A stretch of DNA of 41,368 nt from a virus (Duplodnaviria; Heunggongvirae; Uroviricota; Caudoviricetes), in the IMG/VR virus record IMGVR_UViG_2660238423_000035, one strand, 5' to 3'. Shown piece after piece: positions 6,003-36,379 of the stretch. The translations under genes were made by a program, and so were the position numbers. Numbering within the stretch: position 1 is the stretch's first letter; each line of letters starts with the position of its first letter. The notes under the pieces are model-generated. The model did no database searches. It was not told where the DNA came from and worked only from the letters and a program-made list of their open reading frames with translations.

Positions 6003-6793
6003 TGCAACATGTCCTCTTTATTATGAGCGACATAAACGCCTCCTACACTCCAGTCAGTTAATCCAGAACGCACGCGAGCTGAAATAAGCTCAACATTCAT
6101 GGCTGCGCATGTTGCTGCATCAGCATTGTTTACATACATTTCAAAAATAAGCTCTGGATCTTCACCGTCCTCAGTAACATCAAGCAGACGGACTGCAGAG
6201 TTCAGTTTTTGCACCAAATCCAGTTTTTCATACATCAAAGCTGAGATATTTTTAATCACATCCTCTTTGTTGTACCGACTGGCTATATTTGCATACTCCA
6301 GACTCCGCAACATATCTGACTCCCGGTCTTGCTCTATGAATTTCTCATACATTTCTGTACGCAAAAGGAACTCGCGCATTTCCAGAAAGCATGAAAAATC
6401 CGCAACTGAAGATGAATAGTAATATGCGTCACAAGCCAAAATTGGGCTACTGGTAGCATCGAATCCACGCTTAGCCACATTTAAAGCCTCGACTGCTCCA
6501 CTGCACCAGAACAAACCCAGATTATAGTTCCTCCATGCGACAGTATCTGTAGGTAGATATCTCAACATTTCTTCCGCATAATATTTACCGCGCTCGATAT
6601 CTCCTAGGGTGAAGTAGAAAAAGGATAATGCAGAGCATTTTAGCCCCGGGTCCTGAATCTCTTCGATCTGCTTAGCAGTTCGTTCTTTAACAAAAACGGT
6701 AATATCCTGCTCAAAACACAAGTAAGGTCGCAGGGTCATAACAACCCGATTAACTGTTTTAATATCCCTGGATTTTTGTGTTTTTGGTTGCAT
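5993..6793 (-). CDS. Hypothetical protein (266 aa), cargo gene inside tail operon
   Basis: ORF preceded by 89-bp gap; helical/repeat-like composition, no nucleotide-binding or catalytic motifs recognised. Confidence 0.6.
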   Translation of the reverse strand: MQPKTQKSRDIKTVNRVVMTLRPYLCFEQDITVFVKERTAKQIEEIQDPGLKCSALSFFYFTLGDIERGKYYAEEMLRYLPTDTVAWRNYNLGLFWCSGAVEALNVAKRGFDATSSPILACDAYYYSSSVADFSCFLEMREFLLRTEMYEKFIEQDRESDMLRSLEYANIASRYNKEDVIKNISALMYEKLDLVQKLNSAVRLLDVTEDGEDPELIFEMYVNNADAATCAAMNVELISARVRSGLTDWSVGGVYVAHNKEDMLQCQ

Positions 6794-23924: not shown

Positions 23925-24023
23925 ACTTCCCACCTCCGCCATTACGGGGTGTTGTTGAAAGGCGGGCCCTGCGTATACGCCCGTAGGATTGGGTTATGAG
24001 CCGTCCTTCGGTGGGCCCTGAAT

Positions 24024-24050
24024 ACAAAAAAAGTTCGCCATAGCGAACCT
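24024..24050 (-). terminator. Intrinsic terminator (minus strand) in Q-holin intergenic region
   Basis: Minus-strand GTTCGC-TATG-GCGAAC hairpin followed by TTTTTTT. Confidence 0.5.
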
Positions 24051-24276
24051 TGTTAAATTTGTTAAAAAAGGAAGTTATTTAACATAATGTACGTTATAGG
24101 AACCACACGATCCCCGCTCGCAATAGATTTGCGATGAAAGGCCTATTTAATCAACTTAAGTGGTTCAAAATGACGAAATTCGAGTGAATAAAAGGTGCAT
24201 AAAAAAGGGCAAAAACTGCATAGCGTTTTTTCGCGACGAAAACCCTGTTTTATTAACTTTTACTGAGAATAGAGCA

Positions 24277-24303
24277 TTAAAAAAGGCCCCCTTGCGGGAG
24301 CCT
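24277..24303 (-). terminator. Intrinsic terminator (minus strand), candidate tR'-like terminator downstream of Q
   Basis: Minus-strand GGCUCCC-GCAA-GGGGGCC hairpin (7 bp with one G-U pair, GNRA-type loop) followed by TTTTTT. Confidence 0.6.
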
Positions 24304-24456
24304 CTTCGTGATGAACTGTTTTCAACAGATATCAGGCTAATCGGCTTTTTGGAATTCCACAACTATTTTTTATCTTACCTTGATACCTGAAGCCGTCAGG
24401 TGTTTACGGCAATCCTGAATACCATCTGATTCCCTTACGTGATTGATTACTGGATA

Positions 24457-25195: not shown

Positions 25196-25244
25196 CGTCG
25201 TATCCTCATTTAGTTATTTGCTAATTTTTTCAAGTTAATTTCCG

Positions 25245-25507
25245 GGTGACGGCTAGGTGACGCGTAATTACATATCCGTCACCTGCTGCAAAGCGCGCCA
25301 TATAAGGCCTGAAGATGTTTTAGGTGACAGGTGACGGTTGATTTTAGTTCTCTATATATAAGCGATCGTATAATACCTAAAATACACACTCTCGCGTATA
25401 TAGTTTTAAATTCTGCCGTCACCTGTCACCTTTAGCACATTTCCCATTGTTTTATATATACTTTTTAAGGTGACGCTTAAGCGTTTTGCCGTCACCTAGC
25501 CGTCACC
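25245..25507. repeat. Iteron array: about ten copies of GGTGAC(G)/(C)GTCACC in both orientations with AT-rich spacers; putative replication origin
   Basis: Copies read at approx. 25245, 25256, 25277, 25323, 25330, 25417, 25425, 25469, 25491, 25502; AT-rich tracts at about 25350-25415 and 25450-25466; directly 3' of the primase-polymerase gene. Confidence 0.55.
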
Positions 25508-25510
25508 TTT

Positions 25511-27772
25511 TTACAATCCAGATTGCAAAATTTCGCAAGATTTATATATTTCGCGCAATTCTTCGTTGCTGAAATCGTTATTTTTTACAAGAATCCAAAT
25601 CCTATATACAAACCCGTCAATTTTTACGCGTACGGGTTCCCGCTTTGTTCTTTCTTTCAAAATGCGAGTAATATGCTTCTGGTTAATTTCTACATCCATT
25701 CCTGCTTCTGCCAGTATTGCGTTAACAATTTGTTGATAAGTCATTGCTGGCACAGGCGGATTATCCAGGATTTCAATAAGAGCAGCCTCCACATCGCTCT
25801 TATTGCTTTCAATCATCAGAAGGCGTTCTTTCGTCTCGGGGGCGCGCTGCCAGTTAAAGCGAGACAGGTCAACGCCCATCAGATACCAGTACACCTGGGC
25901 GATAAAGTCGCTGTCGCTTAGCGCACCGTACAGGCTGGCGTAATGCTCTTCAGTTGCGGCGAAGTCAGGGCCCCCCAGCACAGCGATACGTCGGTCTTCC
26001 TCTGGCAGCGCCAGCGCATCAAAGTGGTTGGTGTAGAACAGAAAGCCGGTGTATATATCCATCGTTTTTTTGCTGCCATATTTGCGGTTCACTTCAAACC
26101 GTGGTTCTGTCAGCACGTCACGGATCTTATCGTTCACCTCATACCGCTTATCATTTTCGCGCACCTCGTCAATGGTGCATAGAAGCGTATTGTACAGATA
26201 GTCATGGAACTGGTTATCGCACAGGATCTTCATGCGAGTACGAGCACAGTTCCACGGACCAAGCACGCGCTCCATTAACTGGCTGACCCATCCTCTGCCC
26301 GTACCATGTGCGGTAGCCACATGCAGAATAGAAATCGGGCATCGACGCTCCGGACGCTGAACCATCCACCCCAGACGGGCGATGAAAAACTCGCGCTGCC
26401 AGGCATCAGGTACCAGATACGCCATATGATTAAGGAACGTGGACACCTTACTTGTATCCGCTGTACGTGGATGCTCAGGCATATAAAATTCGTTTATCTC
26501 AAACCGCCCGTCGAAACGCTCGATAATACGTCCCGCACCGGGCTTATAGCCTGTCGTCTCAGCAATCTTCTTATGCCGATGCTCTATCCACCGTTTGGTT
26601 GCGGGAGTTGGTTGCCCTTTCCCTTCTGGCGGGAACTGGTAAGGCGCCATCAGGTTTTTGAACGACTTCATATCCATCATGCACTGATATGGCGGTCGGC
26701 TAAGATCACATACCTGGTCACCCTCGATGACGTAGATAAAGCGTTCCAGAAAATGAGCTGTCATATCTGTATTAATATCGGTAAATTCAGGCTTATCGCC
26801 ATCTTCAACCACCGTGAGATCTTCGAACAGGGATTGCGTATAGCCGTAGCCTTCCAGCCAGTCGGCATCAGTAAGCCCCGCATCGGTGTTGTGCATGCTT
26901 TTAAAATGTCCCTGTTCAAATCCCCCCGTCCCTTTTGGGAAATACTTAATGGATGTTTCGCTGCAACCGTTGCTGTATTCTGACTCATCCCGAAACGGTT
27001 TCAGATTGCGGGAACCATCAGAGCTGACTGACAGAGTCCACCCGTTCGCGTCAAGCCAGTCGGCGACATCATCTGTCGCGGAAGGATCAACACAGGAAAG
27101 ATCACGCTGACGTCCTGCACCTGCGGTATAGCTGTCTTTCACGGGTAAGTTATCCGCCAGACGCTGCCACAGGCTTTCGAGCTGTTCAGATGTAATTTTC
27201 AGAGGTTCGCCGGGCAGACCGCAGTCCCACTGAATACGTTCGCCTGCCGGATGGGTACCACAAGCCACAAACTGCTGGCCCTTAGCGAGCAGCTCTATTT
27301 GTTTGTTTTCGCCTTCCAGGCGGTGACCACGTTTACGGTAGTCGCCATCAACAGCAATCAGGTACAGGCATTTATGACTGTCAGCCCGCCAGCGACGTGG
27401 CGGAAGTTCCCCCAGGCATGACAGGATAATATTGCGTACGATCTCCTGCATCCCGGCGTCATTGATATCGCAGTCCAGAGCCACCACCCCGTCGCCAGTA
27501 CGAACGCAAATACCGTAATCGGGTTCGTTCGACCACCGGGCAAAATCGTTTTCCGTAACAACATAGTTAGCCCAGTCGGGGATACCAACAACCTTACGTT
27601 GGCCATTGTAGCGACTGGGGGTTTTGCCGAAATTATGAGACAGCTTGCTATTAGGCGACAGTTCTGCACAGGGATTGGACACCACAGGTAAAAGCCTGTC
27701 TGTCATCCCCAACACCAGATCGAAGTGGAACCACTCATCGGGCGTAGCTCCCCATGGTTTGTTATCAGACAT
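25511..27772 (-). CDS. Replication protein with N-terminal primase-polymerase (prim-pol) domain
   Basis: 753 aa; acidic DxD-type motif …GVVALDCDINDAG… in N-terminal region typical of bifunctional primase/polymerase domains; no clear Walker A motif was found in the C-terminal half, so helicase activity is not asserted. Confidence 0.65.
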   Translation of the reverse strand: MSDNKPWGATPDEWFHFDLVLGMTDRLLPVVSNPCAELSPNSKLSHNFGKTPSRYNGQRKVVGIPDWANYVVTENDFARWSNEPDYGICVRTGDGVVALDCDINDAGMQEIVRNIILSCLGELPPRRWRADSHKCLYLIAVDGDYRKRGHRLEGENKQIELLAKGQQFVACGTHPAGERIQWDCGLPGEPLKITSEQLESLWQRLADNLPVKDSYTAGAGRQRDLSCVDPSATDDVADWLDANGWTLSVSSDGSRNLKPFRDESEYSNGCSETSIKYFPKGTGGFEQGHFKSMHNTDAGLTDADWLEGYGYTQSLFEDLTVVEDGDKPEFTDINTDMTAHFLERFIYVIEGDQVCDLSRPPYQCMMDMKSFKNLMAPYQFPPEGKGQPTPATKRWIEHRHKKIAETTGYKPGAGRIIERFDGRFEINEFYMPEHPRTADTSKVSTFLNHMAYLVPDAWQREFFIARLGWMVQRPERRCPISILHVATAHGTGRGWVSQLMERVLGPWNCARTRMKILCDNQFHDYLYNTLLCTIDEVRENDKRYEVNDKIRDVLTEPRFEVNRKYGSKKTMDIYTGFLFYTNHFDALALPEEDRRIAVLGGPDFAATEEHYASLYGALSDSDFIAQVYWYLMGVDLSRFNWQRAPETKERLLMIESNKSDVEAALIEILDNPPVPAMTYQQIVNAILAEAGMDVEINQKHITRILKERTKREPVRVKIDGFVYRIWILVKNNDFSNEELREIYKSCEILQSGL

Positions 27773-27775
27773 GGG

Positions 27776-27976
27776 TTACGCCTTTTGTCTAGCTGTCACT
27801 TCCTGAAAAAGCTTTTCTATCGCACGTACTGTAGAAAAGCGAGGGTCAGAATGAACCCCGGTGAGAAGCCGACTAATAGAAGACTGCTTCACGCCTGCAA
27901 TTTCGGCAATTTGGTTTTGGGTATACCCTGAATCAATCAAGCTTTTGACCATCTCTTGTGGTGTTAGTCCGGACAT
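27776..27976 (-). CDS. Cro-like HTH transcriptional regulator
   Basis: 66 aa, HTH …TQNQIAEIAGVKQSSISRLL…, divergent from cI-like repressor, first gene of the minus-strand early operon. Confidence 0.7.
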   Translation of the reverse strand: MSGLTPQEMVKSLIDSGYTQNQIAEIAGVKQSSISRLLTGVHSDPRFSTVRAIEKLFQEVTARQKA

Positions 27977-28117
27977 ATTTAAGTCTCCACTTTCGTCTAT
28001 AGCGCAAATTTATACGAAAACGGATTATTCAGCAATACGGCAATTCTATATCATCCTGGATTAAAATATCCGATAACGCATAATCACCGTCCCTGTATAC
28101 AACATGGATGAATCCAA
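27977..28117. promoter_or_regulatory. Divergent cI/cro promoter-operator region
   Basis: 140-bp gap between divergent repressor genes; TATAAA -10-like element for the cro direction; palindromic GGATTAAAATATCC element; exact operators not resolved. Confidence 0.5.
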
Positions 28118-28792
28118 ATGATTGATACTACCGATATCCTTTCTCAAAACATCAAGTACCTGATGGACAAAGCCAAGATAAGCTCGATAACTGAGCTGGC
28201 ACGTCGGTTACAACTGAACCAACCAACGCTACACAGGCTGGTATCAGGAGAGGTGAAAGATCCGAAATACGCAACGTTAAAGCAGATCGCCGACTACTTC
28301 CACGTGTCACCAATAGACCTGGCAGAAAGGAGCCTTCAAGAAATGGAGAAAGAGGACGCGACAGGTATAAAAACGTATATTTCTCTTAGGTTTAATAAAG
28401 TACCTGTTTTGGGAAACACTCAGCTAGGCGTTGGAGGACTTTGGAGCGACACCCAATATTCAGTAGGTAGCAGTGATGGTTTCATATACTGGCCGACAAA
28501 GGATGAAGATGCATACGCCCTGAAATGTGTTGGTGATTCAATGATGCCTAGAATCAAAGAGGGTGAGTTCGTAATCGTCGAACCCAACCACGACTACACT
28601 CCTGGTGATGAAGTACTTGTGGTTACCCGGGACGGTGAGGTCATGGTTAAAACCTTCTTGTTCGAACGCGATGGCCTGTTCCATCTAATGTCTGTAAATG
28701 AAGATCATCCACCAGTCAGAGTACCACGCGAAAACATTGAAAAAATCCATTACGTGGCGGGGATCGCCAAATCCGCGCTACGCATGTACTAA
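28118..28792 (+). CDS. CI-like repressor (HTH plus LexA/S24 autopeptidase domain)
   Basis: 224 aa; N-terminal HTH; C-terminal S24 signature …CVGDSMMPRI… (Ser) and …VMVKTF… (Lys). Confidence 0.9.
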   Translation: MIDTTDILSQNIKYLMDKAKISSITELARRLQLNQPTLHRLVSGEVKDPKYATLKQIADYFHVSPIDLAERSLQEMEKEDATGIKTYISLRFNKVPVLGNTQLGVGGLWSDTQYSVGSSDGFIYWPTKDEDAYALKCVGDSMMPRIKEGEFVIVEPNHDYTPGDEVLVVTRDGEVMVKTFLFERDGLFHLMSVNEDHPPVRVPRENIEKIHYVAGIAKSALRMY

Positions 28793-28823
28793 CCTTTACA
28801 GTCTGATAACTTACTTCTGATCA

Positions 28824-28856
28824 AACCGCTCTCCACAAGGGCGGTTTTCTTATTTG
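28824..28856 (+). terminator. Intrinsic terminator after repressor gene
   Basis: AAACCGC…GCGGTTT hairpin followed by TCTTATTT, about 30 nt after cI stop. Confidence 0.5.
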
Positions 28857-28876
28857 CAAAATAATTCATTTTCGTA

Positions 28877-28905
28877 TTGACACAAAATCCCATAACGCAT
28901 ATAAA
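28877..28905 (+). promoter_or_regulatory. Near-consensus sigma70 promoter (plus strand) of unknown target
   Basis: TTGACA - 17 bp - TATAAA read at approx. 28877-28905; downstream transcript would be antisense to the 3' region of the 189-aa gene. Confidence 0.5.
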
Positions 28906-29167
28906 TACGATATCGCATAATTAATGCGTTTTTTAATACCAGCTCTTTAACAAACTGAACCGCGTGACAGGTAAGCCGCAGTACTCCTGGCAAAATGAAA
29001 TGGCACCCGATGGGATCGAGGTAAGCGCCGAGTCCGTATGCGTACGGTAAGCGTAGAGGACAACACCGCGACGAACTGATAAGTCACGCAAGTTGAAACG
29101 CCCCGACGATGGGGCGCTTAGTTCCTTTAACTCTGGGTGGCCGGAAGGGTACCCATGCTTAAAGAAA

Positions 29168-29737
29168 TTACTGGTTGTAAGGATCGTAATCCGTGATTGC
29201 CTTCCCCGGATTTTCATCTTCAGAAGGCAGTCGGGCTTCTAAAGCATTTCGGTTGAACAGATAGGAAGCCCTACAGTACGAACAAACCATATTAACGGCT
29301 CGCCCAAGGCCTGGCTTAGTAACCAGACCTTCCGCTTGCAATATAGATTTTCTCTTTTGCTCGTAGCAATTGGGACAAATATAAACCGGAGATTGGTCAG
29401 CATCTGCAGAAAGCTTGCTGCGATAGACCAGAGGACCCCGCATAGGCTGGTAAAGTTCATAGCTCGCCGCTTCAGCGGCCCAGTTCTCTTGCTTTACTTT
29501 CTCATTTTCCAGTTCAACAATTTTCTCCTTAGCCGCAATCAGCAGCTCCTGAAGCGACATTTGCTGCATCTGAACATCCATTAGCTTATCGAGTAAGATG
29601 TGCGTCTTCTCTTTAACTGCATAGTCGACAGTCAGATTCTGAATCTCTCTTGCTGCTCCAACCGCGCTTTTAATTGCTCCTCCCACGCCGGATAACGATT
29701 CAGTTATCCGGGAAAGAATTCCTTTTTCTTCAGACAT
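29168..29737 (-). CDS. Hypothetical coiled-coil/zinc-ribbon protein (189 aa), cargo gene beside immunity region
   Basis: Opposite strand to flanking cI and early-left operon; predicted coiled coil (…LQELLIAAKEKIVELENEKVKQENW…) and two CxxC pairs (CPNC … CSYC). Confidence 0.6.
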   Translation of the reverse strand: MSEEKGILSRITESLSGVGGAIKSAVGAAREIQNLTVDYAVKEKTHILLDKLMDVQMQQMSLQELLIAAKEKIVELENEKVKQENWAAEAASYELYQPMRGPLVYRSKLSADADQSPVYICPNCYEQKRKSILQAEGLVTKPGLGRAVNMVCSYCRASYLFNRNALEARLPSEDENPGKAITDYDPYNQ

Positions 29738-29876
29738 ATCTAATCTCTCTCAAACTGTAGGGGTGAAGAGATATTAGACGATTTCTCACTGTAGGGGTAC
29801 AAGGAGAACCACCTCGCCTGATGTGGTTAAAAGCAGGCACTCGATGATATCCATGTAATTGCTGTGTGTAGTCTTT

Positions 29877-29903
29877 GCCCGCCGCAAGTGACGGGCTTTT
29901 TTA
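29877..29903 (+). terminator. Intrinsic terminator (plus strand) upstream of early-left operon
   Basis: GCCCG…CGGGC hairpin followed by TTTTTT. Confidence 0.5.
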
Positions 29904-29961
29904 TGTCTGAAAGCGCACTCGCAACAGCGCGCTCCCCGATATGAAAAAAGGAATACAACCG

Positions 29962-30111
29962 ATGAAACCTGAACACATCCATCGACTGACGGGGCGCGAT
30001 GTTCTCCGTTATCGCCGTAAAAACTTCGATTTGATGACCGGTCTGGCCGTTGCCACTGCGCTCGGTCTGATCATCACTTTCATTCTCCTTGTAGCGAGGA
30101 CCACAGTATGA
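29962..30111 (+). CDS. Small membrane protein (49 aa; 56 aa if started at 29941), not in the ORF track
   Basis: ATG with AGGA RBS; C-terminal hydrophobic helix …LMTGLAVATALGLIITFILLVA…; stop overlaps start of the 300-aa gene (ATGA). Confidence 0.4.
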   Translation: MKPEHIHRLTGRDVLRYRRKNFDLMTGLAVATALGLIITFILLVARTTV

Positions 30112-34315: not shown

Positions 34316-36379
34316 ATGTCCAATATACTATGGGGCGACCTGGAAACCTATTGCGAAATCCCTATTACGAACGGTACCCATGCGTATGCCGAAGGCGTTG
34401 AAGTGATGCTTTTCGCATGGGCTATCAACGACGGGCCAGTAAACGTGTGGGATATCACTGCCGGTGGTGGTATTCCACACGGCTTATACGAAGCAATCGC
34501 AGACCCTGAAACCCTGCTTTATTTTCATAACTCTCACTTCGACCGCACCGTCCTGCGTTATGCAATGCCGCGCCTGGCACCGCCAGTCGAACGTTGGCGC
34601 GACACAATGGTGCAGGCGCTGGCGCACGGTCTCCCGGGGTCTCTGGGGGAACTCTGCGAAATACTCGGCGTCCCGCAAGACAAAGCGAAGGACAAAGAAG
34701 GTAAAGCGCTGATCCAGCTGTTCTGTAAGCCCCGCCCGAAAAACAGCAAACTGCGCCGTGCCACCAGCAAAACCCACCCGGAAGAATGGCGGCGCTTTGT
34801 TGCTTACGCCGGACTGGATATCGAGGCAATGCGCGAAGTCTATAAACGTCTGCCGAAGTGGAATTATCAGGGGACAGAGCTGGCGCTCTGGCATCGTGAT
34901 CAGCAGATCAACGACCGGGGCGTCTGCATGGACATGCAACTCGCGCGCGCTGCGATCGAAGCGGTAGACCAGGAGCAAAAGCGCCTGGCAAAGCGTACAC
35001 AGGAAATGACTGATGGCGAAGTGCAGGCAGCCACACAACGAGACGCGTTGATTAAGCACATTGTTGAATCCTACGGTGTGGAGCTACCAGACATGCAACG
35101 CAGTACTCTGGAACGTCGTATTGCCGACCCCGATTTACCATCTGCCGTGAAAGAACTGCTGGCTATCCGACTGCAGGCCAGTACTACCAGCACCAGTAAA
35201 TACAAGGCACTGATGAAAGGCGTAAGCCACGACGGGCGCTTACGCGGTACGCTACAGTTCTGCGGGGCGTCACGTACCGGTCGTTGGGCCGGACGGCTAT
35301 TCCAGCCCCAGAATCTTCCCCGCCCTTCACTAAAACAGGAACAAATAGACGAAGGCATCGAAGCACTGAAAGCCGGATGTGCAGACCTGCTGTTTGACAA
35401 TATCATGGAACTAACCAGTTCAGCGTTACGTGGCTGCATTATCGCGCCAACAGGCAAAAAACTGGTGGTAAGTGACTTGTCGAACATTGAAGGCCGTATG
35501 CTGGCATGGCTGGCAGGAGAAGAATGGAAACTGAATGCATTCAGAGAGTACGACGCCGGAACGGGTCCGGACTTATATAAACTGGCGTATGCAAAAGCTT
35601 TCGATATTGCACCAGATGATGTTGATAAACACATGCGTCAGATCGGTAAAGTCATGGAACTCGGTCTGGGTTATGGTGGTGGTGTGTCGGCCTTCATCAC
35701 TTTTGCACTGGTTTACGGTCTCGATCTCGACGAGCTGGCGAACGCCGCACTACCAAACATTCCCCGCGATGTTATCCGCGAGGCGAAAAGCTGGTACGAC
35801 GAATCGGTTAAACGCAAGTCAACCTACGGGCTTTCTGAACGGGTATTTATCGCCTGCGACTCACTTAAACGTCTCTGGCGCCGGGCGCATCCCGCGACCT
35901 GTGATTTCTGGTACGAACTGGAGCGCACCGTCCGCACTGCAATCGCCACACCGCAAAAAACATTGTATTGCGGTTATCTTAAAATCCGCCGCGATGGCGC
36001 GTGGCTGCGCATACAGCTACCATCCGGACGCGCTGTATGCTACCCGTCTCCGGTTATCGAAAAAGGGAATATCACCTACATGGGGGTTAACTCTTATTCG
36101 CGTAAATGGCAACGACTCAAAACCTACGGCGGAAAGCTGGTGGAGAACATCACCCAGGCGGCCGCCCGCGACATTCTGGCCGGAAACATGCCGCTTATCG
36201 AAGATGCCGGTTACAGCATTGTGCTGACGGTACACGACGAGGTGATCACCGAAGCACCTGACACAGAAGATTTCAACGATAAAGCGCTTTCCGCACTTCT
36301 CTCCACTAACCCCGAATGGGCGCCCGATATCCCACTGAACGCTGGCGGTTTTGAGGCGTACCACTACCGTAAGGATTAA
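34316..36379 (+). CDS. DNA polymerase, family A, with 3'-5' exonuclease domain
   Basis: 687 aa; exo motif …WGDLETYCE…; polymerase motif A …[16 protein letters not shown]…, motif B …[16 protein letters not shown]…, motif C …TVHDEVI…. Confidence 0.85.

What the first reader, a model, noticed from the sequence alone, without database searches (positions are those of the whole stretch)
28793..29950. Opposite-strand 189-aa zinc-ribbon/coiled-coil gene beside the repressor, with a structured downstream region and an antisense promoter
The segment between cI and the early-left operon is the classic location of lysogen-expressed exclusion genes (lambda rexAB/sieB position). Here it holds one minus-strand gene encoding a coiled-coil protein with two CxxC pairs. 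Its 3' region contains a hairpin (CGCCCC-GACGAT-GGGGCG), three GGTAAGCG-like repeats, and a long-range inverted repeat GCGTGAC…GTCACGC. A near-consensus plus-strand promoter (TTGACA-17-TATAAA) points antisense into this region. Upstream of the gene, the motif ACTGTAGGGGT occurs twice about 34 bp apart, followed by a plus-strand terminator. I could not assign the protein to a known family. The layout suggests a regulated accessory gene, possibly with antisense RNA control.
Basis: partly seen in the sequence, partly recalled or inferred. Interest (0 to 1): 0.55.

Follow-up and report, generated by a model that had tools for sequence, protein, structure and literature searches.

The report
Rip1 defence gene in early-operon leader
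The unassigned 189-aa gene is a relative of Rip1, a recently described prophage protein reported to kill infected cells by forming a pore around an invading phage's assembly rings, and it sits backwards inside the repressor-controlled early transcript beside a conserved folded leader RNA that probably lets that transcript read through terminators.

Summary

- **The gene.** The 189-aa protein is a full-length homologue of phage HK446 Rip1 (PDB 9oox; E 2.5e-46; 52% identity; predicted fold TM 0.88). Rip1 is a single-protein abortive-infection pore.
- **Its position.** It occupies the lambda sieB slot. Its ~100-nt upstream region, which holds both ACTGTAGGGGT copies, is about 81% identical to lambda's sieB upstream region.
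- **The "antisense promoter".** This is the PL analogue. It carries operator repeats shared with the cI/cro intergenic region.
- **The "structured 3' region".** This is an autonomous 180-nt module (28940-29119) that starts with a boxA identical to the E. coli rrn boxA. It recurs behind many different immunity promoters and ahead of many different cargoes. Its helices show covariation: 12 pairs changed on both sides, against 4.4 in shuffles. It has no Rfam match.
- **The plus-strand terminator.** This copies the conserved 3' domain of the host sRNA RprA. In relatives with no cargo it lies 14 nt before the first early gene, so read-through is required.

I infer that the module is an N-independent, boxA-based antitermination leader. 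This is not shown, and the functional strand is not settled by pairing statistics.

The parts
28118..28792 (+). cI-type repressor (HTH plus S24 peptidase). Context only.
   Evidence: Pfam Peptidase_S24 2.6e-18 and HTH_26 3.7e-12.
28823..28847 (+). Intrinsic terminator of the repressor transcript.
   Evidence: Terminator scan: 10-pair stem followed by a T-run.
28854..28928 (+). PL-type early promoter: TTGACA at 28877-28882, 17-nt spacer, TATAAA at 28900-28905. It is overlapped by operator-like repeats at 28884-28901 and 28902-28919 and by the palindrome CGCATAATTAATGCG at 28914-28928.
   Evidence: An 18-nt repeat family is shared with the cI/cro intergenic region (28065-28082). A 24-nt inverted repeat links 28012-28035 with 28854-28877. 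The sequence was read directly.
28942..28953 (+). boxA, GCTCTTTAACAA.
   Evidence: 12/12 identical to the boxA in the E. coli K-12 rrnH leader. Conservation among relatives begins exactly here.
28940..29119 (+). Conserved structured leader RNA module, with these helices:
- P1: 28958-28968 with 29083-29094
- P2: 28975-28983 with 29064-29072
- P2': 28985-28987 with 29058-29060
- P5 hairpin: 29005-29011 with 29015-29022
- P3: 29025-29028 with 29051-29054
- P4: 29034-29038 with 29043-29047
- Terminal GC hairpin: 29099-29116
   Evidence: Covariance model R1 scores 222 bits here. Across 38 distinct sequences 97.8% of cells pair. Twelve pairs change on both sides against 4.4+-1.3 in shuffles (0/500), and slid controls pair at 21-41%. 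No Rfam family matches.
29119..29170 (-). Imperfect hairpin just after the rip1 stop codon. On the minus strand it is followed by the module's GC hairpin plus TTTCAACTT, which is the likely end of the rip1 transcript.
   Evidence: Inverted repeat I1, 20-nt arms, 75% complementary. Minus-strand fold. In L005 the GC hairpin meets the terminator criteria on the minus strand.
29168..29737 (-). rip1 homologue, 189 aa. It has an N-terminal helical hairpin (residues 2-90), a C-terminal beta-rich four-Cys domain (93-167), and a low-confidence tail (168-189).
   Evidence: phmmer against PDB 9oox_L Rip1, E 2.5e-46. Profile search, E 2.6e-49. 52% identity to HK446 gp37. AlphaFold model pLDDT 87.4. Foldseek against 9oox_M, TM 0.88 normalised to the target.
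29738..29840 (-). sieB-type upstream cassette of the cargo gene. It holds both ACTGTAGGGGT copies (29754-29764 and 29788-29798) and the hairpin AACCAC...GTGGTT (29807-29828).
   Evidence: 81% identical to lambda 34395-34499, which lies upstream of and into the start of sieB. The same block sits upstream of HK446 rip1. In the loci fetched, the repeat pair is found only where a minus-strand cargo gene is present or could not be assessed.
29857..29902 (+). RprA-like 3' domain. A 24-nt block, AATTGCTGTGTGTAGTCTTTGCCC (29857-29880), overlaps an intrinsic terminator (29877-29902).
   Evidence: Rfam RprA scores 47.5 bits, E 1.4e-4, below the gathering score of 70. 82.6% identity to the chromosomal rprA 3' part. 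Present in 43 module-bearing loci.
29962..30111 (+). First early-operon ORF, 49 aa, with a C-terminal hydrophobic segment. It is followed by the 300-aa protein, a DUF2800 nuclease, an Enc34-type SSB and a DNA polymerase.
   Evidence: PHROG 11981, 2.4e-36. Pfam results. Annotation of ON470579.

Best explanation
Shown by homology:
- The minus-strand gene encodes a Rip1-family protein.
- Rip1 is a single-protein prophage defence. It is reported to recognise ring-shaped assembly proteins of an infecting phage (portal or small terminase), to assemble around them, and to form a membrane pore that kills the cell before progeny mature.

Shown by comparison:
- The gene is a cargo insertion in the lambda sieB slot.
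- It lies antisense inside the leader of the repressor-controlled early operon.
- It brings its own ~100-nt upstream cassette, the same one that precedes lambda sieB and HK446 rip1.
- The plus-strand promoter is the PL analogue with cI operators.
- The promoter's transcript begins with an rrn-type boxA and a conserved, covarying ~165-nt multi-helix RNA.
- It then runs antisense through rip1 and meets a strong intrinsic terminator that copies the 3' domain of host RprA.
- Only after that terminator does it reach the replication genes.

Inferred:
- The boxA and the structured RNA replace nutL and N.
- They load host Nus factors, and possibly contact RNA polymerase directly.
- This would let the early transcript resist Rho over about 1 kb of untranslated RNA and read through the RprA-like terminator, whatever cargo is inserted between.

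Inferred further:
- On induction, this antiterminated transcription runs over rip1 and damps it, sparing the phage's own assembly rings.
- Transcripts that do stop at the terminator could yield an Hfq-type sRNA with an RprA seed.
For: Rip1 assignment:
- phmmer against PDB 9oox_L, E 2.5e-46 over residues 3-166.
- Profile search, E 2.6e-49.
- 52% identity over the whole length of HK446 gp37, whose sequence is the solved Rip1.
- Model pLDDT 87.4, and Foldseek TM 0.88 to 9oox_M.
- Four invariant Cys.
- Mechanism as summarised in PMC13434031.

sieB slot:
- In lambda the order is PL, nutL, N, then sieB on the opposite strand. In HK446 it is PL, N, then rip1 on the opposite strand.
- The upstream cassette is conserved.

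PL analogue:
- Operator repeats and a 24-nt inverted repeat are shared with the cI/cro region.

Module autonomy:
- The same 175 nt occurs with other immunity regions and other downstream genes in E. coli genomes.
- It occurs in 84 viral contigs and in Trabulsiella.
- Conservation always starts at boxA.
- A promoter-like site lies 19-67 nt upstream on the plus strand in most of 68 distinct flanks.
- In 28 of 54 phages related through the 300-aa early protein, the module is present and always in operon orientation.

boxA:
- Identical to the rrnH boxA.

Structure:
- Covariation results.
- The divergent variants L153 and L148 replace the P5, P3 and P4 sequences but keep the hairpins.

Need for read-through:
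- In L009 the terminator GCCCCTC-GCAA-GAGGGGC-T8 ends 14 nt before the first early ATG.
- Inserts of 48 to 743 nt are tolerated between the module and the terminator.

No protein antiterminator found:
- No lambda-type N homologue in 115 module-bearing loci.
- No Pfam N hit among neighbouring ORFs.
- No arginine-rich motif in the small early proteins inspected.
Against: - There are no transcript or phenotype data of any kind.
- Minimum-free-energy z-scores favour the minus strand: -1.96 and -2.37, against +0.32 and -1.19 for the plus strand.
- G-U versus A-C counts in the helices do not choose a strand. The plus-strand assignment therefore rests on boxA and on promoter context.
- Only one copy exists in the phage. 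There is no nutR- or putR-like partner in the rightward operon.
- From established knowledge, rrn-type Nus complexes suppress Rho-dependent termination well but intrinsic terminators poorly.
- boxA can also promote Rho termination, as in the suhB leader (PMC12360218).
- 26 of 54 related phages lack the module. The one of these that I read, L104, has a different leader before the same RprA-like terminator.
- L005 has no plus-strand intrinsic terminator after the module.
- No sigma-70 consensus promoter for rip1 was found by the scan.
- Only lambda-type N was searched for. P22-type and phage 21-type N proteins were not.
Confidence: 0.7

Rival explanations
1. The folded module works on the minus strand. 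It would be a 3' UTR, terminator or insulator for leftward cargo transcripts such as rip1. It would stop them before they collide with the PL-type promoter and the repressor gene, or stabilise their 3' ends.
For: - The minus strand folds better than shuffles (z -1.96 and -2.37), while the plus strand does not.
- On the minus strand the GC hairpin is followed by TTTCAA(C/T)TT, and in L005 it passes the terminator scan.
- Several helix positions are A-C on the plus strand and G-U on the minus strand.
Against: - The module is kept unchanged where there is no minus-strand gene downstream: 13 empty sites and many loci whose cargo is on the plus strand.
- Its conserved edge is a perfect rrn boxA on the plus strand.
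- Promoter-like sites point into it on the plus strand in most flanks, and no minus-strand site scores as well.
- Other lineages have G-U on the plus strand at four or five helix positions, which would be mismatches on the minus strand.
Confidence: 0.12
2. The promoter, module and RprA-like terminator are first of all a small-RNA gene. A ~300-nt to 1-kb cI-repressed transcript would be processed to an Hfq-bound RprA mimic that reprograms host mRNAs on induction. Early-gene expression would be a by-product of leaky termination. This does not exclude the antitermination model.
For: - The 24-nt block is identical to the most conserved part of RprA, and its terminator is kept by a compensatory stem change.
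- In empty-site relatives the unit is a compact promoter, structured body, seed and terminator.
- There is a precedent. StxS is made by early termination of the PR' transcript and is processed by RNase E to an rpoS-activating sRNA (PMC7547250).
Against: - An sRNA gene has no use for boxA.
- The rpoS-pairing part of RprA, which lies upstream of the shared block, is absent.
- The early genes start 14 nt (L009) to 59 nt (this window) after the terminator, with no promoter recognisable in between. Read-through is therefore functionally required, not incidental.
- Cargo of up to 743 nt can separate the body from the seed.
Confidence: 0.25
3. The module is a local attenuator or riboswitch-like sensor. 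It would decide termination at the RprA-like terminator through alternative pairing or a ligand, rather than by modifying RNA polymerase processively.
For: The layout of leader RNA, then terminator, then genes is the classical attenuator layout. Many unpaired nucleotides are invariant, for example 28985-29060, which suggests a specific ligand or partner.
Against: - The distance from the module to the terminator varies from 48 to 743 nt, with unrelated inserts between. This rules out a fixed alternative-pairing switch.
- I saw no complementarity between the module and the terminator stem (by eye only).
- No riboswitch family matches in Rfam.
Confidence: 0.07
4. The 189-aa protein is a zinc-finger early regulator of the phage, not a defence protein.
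For: It has four Cys in two CxxC pairs and a coiled-coil-like N-terminus. A weak profile hit to C2H2 zinc fingers has E about 1e-4.
Against: - It shows full-length homology and fold match to the structurally solved Rip1.
- It is absent from many closely related phages that keep the same early genes.
- It is encoded antisense to the early operon, in the sieB slot.
Confidence: 0.03

Closest known systems
Rip1 of Escherichia phage HK446 (PDB 9oox; Patel et al. 2026, as summarised in PMC13434031)
   Same: - 52% identity over the whole HK446 protein.
- Same helical-hairpin plus four-Cys beta domain fold.
- Same genomic slot, opposite strand, just downstream of the PL region.
- Same ~100-nt upstream cassette.
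   Different: - This protein has a 23-residue C-terminal tail ending ITDYDPYNQ that HK446 Rip1 lacks.
- The host phage is not lambdoid in its replication module, which has a prim-pol/helicase, a DNA polymerase A and an Enc34 SSB.
- N is absent upstream.
Lambda and P22 sieB (superinfection exclusion B), with the P22 sas antisense RNA
   Same: A lysogen-expressed exclusion gene lies antisense within the PL operon. The upstream ~100 nt is 81% identical to lambda's. The idea that PL-direction RNA modulates the gene follows P22 sas, which I recall from Ranade and Poteete 1993 and did not check here.
   Different: The proteins are unrelated. Only a 29-residue C-terminal stretch aligns, at E 0.002. 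No dedicated sas-like promoter was identified.
Lambda nutL and N processive antitermination
   Same: The element is promoter-proximal in the cI-repressed leftward-type operon. It begins with boxA and lies upstream of terminators and of the sieB slot.
   Different: - No boxB hairpin follows boxA at the usual spacing.
- No N gene is present.
- A 165-nt multi-helix RNA stands in their place.
- There is no second site in the other early operon.
HK022 putL and putR antiterminator RNAs
   Same: Both are cis-acting structured RNAs in the early leaders of a lambdoid phage that lacks a functional N. Tolerance of distance to the terminator is expected for both.
   Different: From memory, put RNAs are about 70 nt with two stem-loops, need no boxA or Nus factors, and occur in both early operons. 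Here the RNA is about 165 nt with at least five helices, is preceded by boxA, and is a single copy. No sequence similarity to HK022 was found in the phage collection search.
E. coli rrn leader antiterminator (boxA, NusB/E/A/G, SuhB, S4)
   Same: The 12-nt boxA is identical. Both protect a long untranslated transcript.
   Different: The flanking sequence is unrelated. A phage promoter under repressor control drives it. A strong intrinsic terminator lies downstream.
RprA (Rfam RF00034) and phage StxS
   Same: The 24-nt conserved single-stranded block and the terminator of RprA are copied. Like StxS, the RNA would arise by termination of a phage leader transcript.
   Different: The score is below the Rfam gathering threshold, at 47.5 against 70. 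The 5' half, including the rpoS-pairing region, is absent. No promoter of its own was seen.

Membership tests
Rip1 (ring-interacting pore 1) | Significant full-length sequence homology to an experimentally characterised Rip1. | tested here: met
   phmmer against 9oox_L, E 2.5e-46, residues 3-166 of the query to 3-162 of the chain. BLASTP against HK446 gp37, 52% identity, E 6e-58.
Rip1 (ring-interacting pore 1) | Fold: long N-terminal helical hairpin plus a C-terminal beta-rich domain. | tested here: met
   AlphaFold model pLDDT 87.4, with helices at 2-34 and 39-90 and strands at 93-162. Foldseek against 9oox_M: E 4.5e-10, TM 0.88 normalised to the target, rmsd 2.3.
Rip1 (ring-interacting pore 1) | Four conserved Cys (two CxxC pairs) in the C-terminal domain. 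| tested here: met
   C121, C124, C152 and C155 are the only invariant columns in 110 family members. Zinc binding itself was not checked.
Rip1 (ring-interacting pore 1) | Encoded in a prophage as an accessory gene. | tested here: met
   The window is a complete temperate phage 98.9% identical to vB_EcoM-606R2. The gene is absent from many close relatives.
Rip1 (ring-interacting pore 1) | Anti-phage activity triggered by portal or small-terminase rings, with pore formation. | not testable with these tools
   Known only from the literature summary (PMC13434031).
SieB (lambda and P22 superinfection exclusion B) | Protein homology to SieB. | tested here: not met
   Only 29 C-terminal residues align, at E 0.002 for a two-sequence comparison. 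The PHROG hit is phrog_1244, of unknown function.
SieB (lambda and P22 superinfection exclusion B) | Position antisense in the PL operon, with the sieB upstream region. | tested here: met
Lambda-type nut site with N | boxA in the promoter-proximal leader. | tested here: met
   GCTCTTTAACAA at 28942-28953, 36 nt after the -10 hexamer and identical to the rrnH boxA.
Lambda-type nut site with N | boxB hairpin a few nt after boxA, and an N protein gene. | tested here: not met
   The next paired element is the long-range helix P1. There is no lambda-N homologue in 115 module loci and no N-family Pfam hit. P22-type and phage 21-type N proteins were not searched.
HK022 put RNA | About 70 nt, two stem-loops, present in both early operons, independent of boxA. 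| tested here: not met
   180-nt model with 7 helices and a leading boxA. Single copy in the window. No HK022 hit in the phage collection search. The put features are recalled from memory. No direct alignment to a put sequence was made.
rrn-type boxA antitermination | Consensus boxA bound by NusB/S10, giving Rho resistance. | tested here: inconclusive
   Sequence identity to the rrnH boxA is met. Binding and function are not testable here.
RprA (Rfam RF00034) | Covariance-model score at or above the gathering threshold. | tested here: not met
   47.5 bits against a threshold of 70, E 1.4e-4.
RprA (Rfam RF00034) | Conserved 3' single-stranded block plus terminator. | tested here: met
   24 of 24 nt are identical to K-12 rprA, and the terminator stem is kept by an A-U to G-C change.
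RprA (Rfam RF00034) | 5' hairpin and rpoS-pairing region. | tested here: not met
   There is no similarity upstream of the 24-nt block in the alignment with K-12 rprA.

The most novel reading that the evidence does not exclude
The 180-nt element at 28940-29119 would be a new class of phage antiterminator. An rrn-type boxA is fused to a conserved multi-helix RNA. With host factors only, and with no N protein, this would make the early transcription complex resistant both to Rho and to a strong intrinsic terminator. It would work over a variable distance, which creates a protected landing pad where defence genes such as rip1 are swapped in and out. The terminator it overrides doubles as a mimic of the host sRNA RprA.
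Probability: 0.35. Interest if true: 0.75.

Novelty: new variant of a known kind. Interest (0 to 1): 0.55.

Why it matters
- **For defence biology.** This adds a diverged Rip1 subtype, with a C-terminal extension, in a non-lambdoid temperate phage. It also shows that sieB and two Rip1 subtypes share one portable upstream cassette and one insertion slot. That makes the slot a practical place to look for further single-gene defences.
- **For transcription biology.** A covarying, unannotated RNA sits where nutL and N should be. It is preceded by a perfect rrn boxA and followed by an obligatory terminator. This makes RNA-plus-host-factor antitermination directly testable with simple reporter fusions in a system with natural sequence variants.
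- **For host-phage RNA biology.** The RprA-like terminator suggests another case of a phage leader transcript doubling as a mimic of a host sRNA.

Tried and rejected
- **Curated protein libraries.** Pfam, NCBIfam and PADLOC gave nothing for the 189-aa protein. PHROGs gave only an unknown-function family. The family became clear only from the PDB sequence search.
- **Rfam.** Nothing was found at gathering thresholds over the whole window. At E up to 10 over 28780-29960, nothing was found in the module.
- **tRNA and tmRNA.** None.
- **Small ORFs in the module.** Rejected. The 9-codon plus-strand ORF loses its ATG in relatives. A natural 26-nt deletion would frameshift the 46-aa minus-strand ORF.
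- **Second copy of the module.** None in the window with filters off. The boxA-like site at 6682 lies antisense within a structural-gene ORF and is within chance expectation.
- **Strand test by G-U versus A-C counts.** Inconclusive.
- **Genome-contig scans.** The first pattern had the wrong spacer and found nothing. The second found only Trabulsiella among the true hits, and the rest looked like chance.
- **mEpimmI 'Nus-dependent non-lambdoid' phages.** They use an N-like protein, Gp17, with boxA and boxB nut sites, so they are a different solution.
- **Literature searches.** Searches for a prophage RprA-like RNA, for N-independent boxA leaders and for the sieB promoter found nothing specific. 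The primary Rip1 paper is not in the library.
- **DNA-level remnant of sieB at the rip1 3' end.** Only a weak resemblance.
- **sigma-70 promoter for rip1 in the cassette.** None meets the scan criteria. My hand search was not convincing.
Full report
**Observation**

The window is a complete temperate phage, 98.9% identical over this region to Escherichia phage vB_EcoM-606R2. The region is found in 169 of 5,426 complete E. coli genomes. The local order is as follows.

| Element | Coordinates | Strand |
|---|---|---|
| prim-pol/helicase | 25511-27772 | minus |
| cro-like gene | 27776-27976 | minus |
| cI-like repressor | 28118-28792 | plus |
| repressor terminator | 28823-28847 | plus |
| non-coding stretch, ~320 nt | up to 29167 | n/a |
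| 189-aa ORF | 29168-29737 | minus |
| non-coding stretch, ~220 nt | from 29738 | n/a |
| plus-strand operon (49-aa protein, 300-aa protein, DUF2800 nuclease, Enc34-type SSB, DNA polymerase) | from 29962 | plus |

**The protein**

- Pfam, NCBIfam and PADLOC are silent, and PHROGs gives an unknown-function family.
- A profile search of 1.84 billion representatives shows a very large family. There are 2,618 clusters at E <= 0.001, mostly 150-175 aa. Four invariant cysteines are the only invariant columns.
- Searching the PDB sequences identifies it. PDB 9oox chain L, 'ring interacting pore 1 (Rip1)', matches at E 2.5e-46 for the single sequence and 2.6e-49 for the profile.
- The solved protein is gp37 of phage HK446, to which the window protein is 52% identical end to end.
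- An AlphaFold model built on 110 homologues (pLDDT 87.4) has a long helical hairpin and a beta-rich Cys4 domain. It superposes on 9oox_M with TM 0.88.
- According to a 2026 review of Patel et al., Rip1 is a prophage-encoded single-protein defence. It senses portal or small-terminase rings of an infecting phage, forms a 12-mer ring around them, and makes a membrane pore that aborts the infection (PMC13434031).

**The slot**

- In HK446 the order is cI, PL, N, rip1 on the opposite strand, then the recombination genes. In lambda it is PL, nutL, N, sieB on the opposite strand, then ral.
- Window 29735-29840 is 81% identical to lambda 34395-34499 and aligns equally well with the HK446 sequence upstream of rip1. 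This stretch runs from the first codons of the gene through about 100 nt upstream.
- Both ACTGTAGGGGT copies and the AACCAC...GTGGTT hairpin lie inside this shared block.
- The repeats are therefore part of a portable upstream cassette that serves unrelated cargo genes: sieB and two Rip1 subtypes.
- Among the loci I fetched, the repeat pair occurs only with minus-strand cargo or where the cargo could not be assessed.
- I could not find a convincing sigma-70 promoter in the cassette, and I do not know what binds the repeats.

**The 'antisense promoter'**

- TTGACA-17-TATAAA at 28877-28905 is overlapped by two copies of an 18-nt sequence that also occurs between cI and cro (28065-28082).
- The 24 nt just upstream of it form an inverted repeat with 28012-28035.
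- This is the OL/OR arrangement of a lambda-type immunity region. The promoter is the PL analogue, repressed in the lysogen.
- The short 'hairpin plus T-run' right after it (28914-28928) is a palindromic operator-like site.

**The 'structured 3' region'**

*It is a separate unit.*
- BLAST against E. coli genomes splits the 321 nt between the cI terminator and the rip1 stop into three independently assorting pieces.
  - Window 28850-28941 is immunity-specific.
  - Window 28942 to about 29116 recurs with other immunity regions and other downstream genes.
  - About 29129-29170 travels with rip1.
- Examples of the middle piece in other contexts:
  - a true lambdoid prophage with gam and bet, and no N gene, where it is 85% identical
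  - a relative in which only plus-strand genes follow
  - a relative with a different minus-strand gene
- A 22-mer from its core is in 84 IMG/VR contigs. Among species-representative genomes, only Trabulsiella guamensis has it.

*It begins at boxA and is read from a promoter.*
- In all 56 distinct variants, conservation begins exactly at (C/T)GCTCTTTAACAA.
- This 12-mer is identical to the boxA of the E. coli rrnH leader.
- Upstream flanks differ. In most of 68 distinct flanks they contain a promoter-like site 19-67 nt before boxA on the plus strand. Fourteen score at least 10/12 on the plus strand and none on the minus strand.

*It is folded.*
- A hand-derived structure has 42 pairs in seven helices. 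A second long helix and three hairpins include the GGTAAGCG copies. A terminal GC hairpin completes it.
- 97.7% of cells pair in 31 sequences, with six pairs changed on both sides.
- After adding two divergent variants found through the neighbouring early gene, 97.8% of cells pair. Twelve pairs change on both sides against 4.4+-1.3 in shuffles (0/500). Slid controls pair at 21-41%. That alignment was fitted to the model, which favours the structure somewhat.
- The divergent variants replace the sequences of P5, P3 and P4 wholesale yet keep the hairpins.
- A natural 26-nt deletion between two GGTAAGCG copies removes the P3/P4 hairpin cleanly in L053 and L088.

*It is not something already catalogued.*
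- No Rfam family matches.
- No small ORF is conserved.
- There is only one copy in the phage.

**The plus-strand terminator**

- Rfam's RprA model matches 29793-29906 below threshold (47.5 bits against 70, E 1.4e-4). The match is carried by its most conserved part.
- Window 29857-29880 is identical over 24 nt to E. coli K-12 rprA. The terminator stem is preserved by a compensatory change.
- The same element is in 43 of the module-bearing loci, 48 to 743 nt after the module's terminal hairpin.
- The space between the module and the terminator holds one of the following:
  - nothing (48-50 nt, 13 loci)
  - small plus-strand ORFs of 54-69 aa
  - a 170-175-aa plus-strand protein with a weak sliding-clamp hit
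  - a 174-aa Rip1 subtype on the minus strand
  - this 189-aa Rip1 on the minus strand
- The basal unit is therefore promoter, boxA, folded RNA, RprA-like terminator, then early genes. rip1 with its cassette is an insertion into it.
- In the empty-site relative L009, a perfect 7-bp GCAA-loop terminator with eight T's ends 14 nt before the first early start codon. Expression of the replication operon must therefore pass this terminator.

**Mechanism (inference)**

- A promoter-proximal boxA, a conserved RNA and an obligatory downstream terminator at variable distance are the signature of processive antitermination.
- I found no lambda-type N and no arginine-rich small protein.
- I therefore favour an N-independent mechanism. 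boxA recruits NusB/S10 and partners, as in rrn operons. The folded RNA supplies what boxA alone lacks, perhaps acting on RNA polymerase as HK022 put RNAs do.
- In this window the transcript must cross about 1,050 nt of untranslated RNA, which is the leader plus antisense rip1. Rho resistance alone would already be valuable there.
- A corollary is that induction would drive antiterminated transcription across rip1 and its cassette. This could turn down a defence that might otherwise fire on the phage's own terminase and portal rings.
It parallels sieB in lambda and P22.

**Caveats**

- Nothing here is a transcript measurement.
- Thermodynamic z-scores favour the minus strand in two diverged variants.
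- Wobble-pair asymmetry is balanced. The strand call rests on boxA, promoter context, and persistence of the module where no minus-strand gene exists.
- rrn-type complexes are not known to defeat strong intrinsic terminators.
- boxA can also stimulate Rho termination in other contexts.
- 26 of 54 related phages lack the module. The one I read, L104, uses a different leader before the same terminator.
- One relative, L005, has no visible plus-strand terminator after the module.

**Comparison and novelty**

- The gene is a new, diverged member of the Rip1 family. Its 23-residue C-terminal tail faintly recalls the SieB C-terminus.
- The immunity layout, the operators and the sieB slot are classical.
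- The boxA-led folded leader is not in Rfam, and I found no description of it in the papers searched. It fails the defining features of nut sites with N and of put RNAs.
- I classify the whole as a new variant of a known kind: a lambda-type early-left control region with an RNA module in place of nutL and N.
- There is a 35% chance that the module is a new class of antiterminator.

Noticed in passing
window 29857-29902 (+): A 24-nt block is identical to the most conserved part of the host sRNA RprA, and it is followed by a terminator whose stem is kept by a compensatory change. The element recurs in 43 related loci as the terminator in front of the early genes. It may yield an RprA-mimicking sRNA, as StxS arises from PR'.
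   Followed up: partly
window 25230-25510: A dense cluster of GGTGACGG / CCGTCACC iterons in both orientations lies between the prim-pol/helicase gene and the next ORF. It looks like the replication origin.
   Followed up: no
L104 2760-3300, and 25 other loci among L104-L157: 26 phages have near-identical or related early genes but give no hit to the boxA module. L104, the only one I read, has a different ~150-nt leader plus a 64-aa Cys-rich ORF in front of the same RprA-like terminator. This points to a second leader type at the same position.
   Followed up: partly
window 29168-29254 (-), protein residues 161-189: The C-terminal tail, ending ITDYDPYNQ, is absent from HK446 Rip1 and resembles the C-terminus of lambda SieB (ASYDPYN; E 0.002). 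The DNA-level similarity is weak. It could be a recombination scar or a shared motif.
   Followed up: partly
L053 6470-6623 and L088 1318-1471, corresponding to window 29020-29045: A natural 26-nt deletion between two GGTAAGCG direct repeats removes the P3/P4 hairpin of the leader RNA exactly. That hairpin is therefore dispensable or modular.
   Followed up: partly
L027, L033, L039, L062, L088 and L092, between the module and the RprA-like terminator: An alternative plus-strand cargo of 170-175 aa gives a weak hit to the central domain of the DNA polymerase III beta clamp (E 0.0012). Other loci carry 54-69-aa ORFs of unknown function at the same site.
   Followed up: partly
L004 3176-3558: In the lambdoid ABWA45-type prophage, about 380 nt of further non-coding sequence separate the module from a minus-strand 'ECs_2282 family' zinc-binding gene that sits in the sieB slot.
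   Followed up: no
window 23950-24456 (-): Downstream of the Q-like gene lies a ~500-nt non-coding stretch with at least two hairpin plus T-run terminators. It is presumably the PR'/tR'-type late control region.
   Followed up: no
window 29269-29282 (within rip1): A third, inverted copy of the CTGTAGGG motif (CCCTACAGTACGAA) lies inside the rip1 coding region and is 86% complementary to 29783-29796. This may be chance.
   Followed up: no
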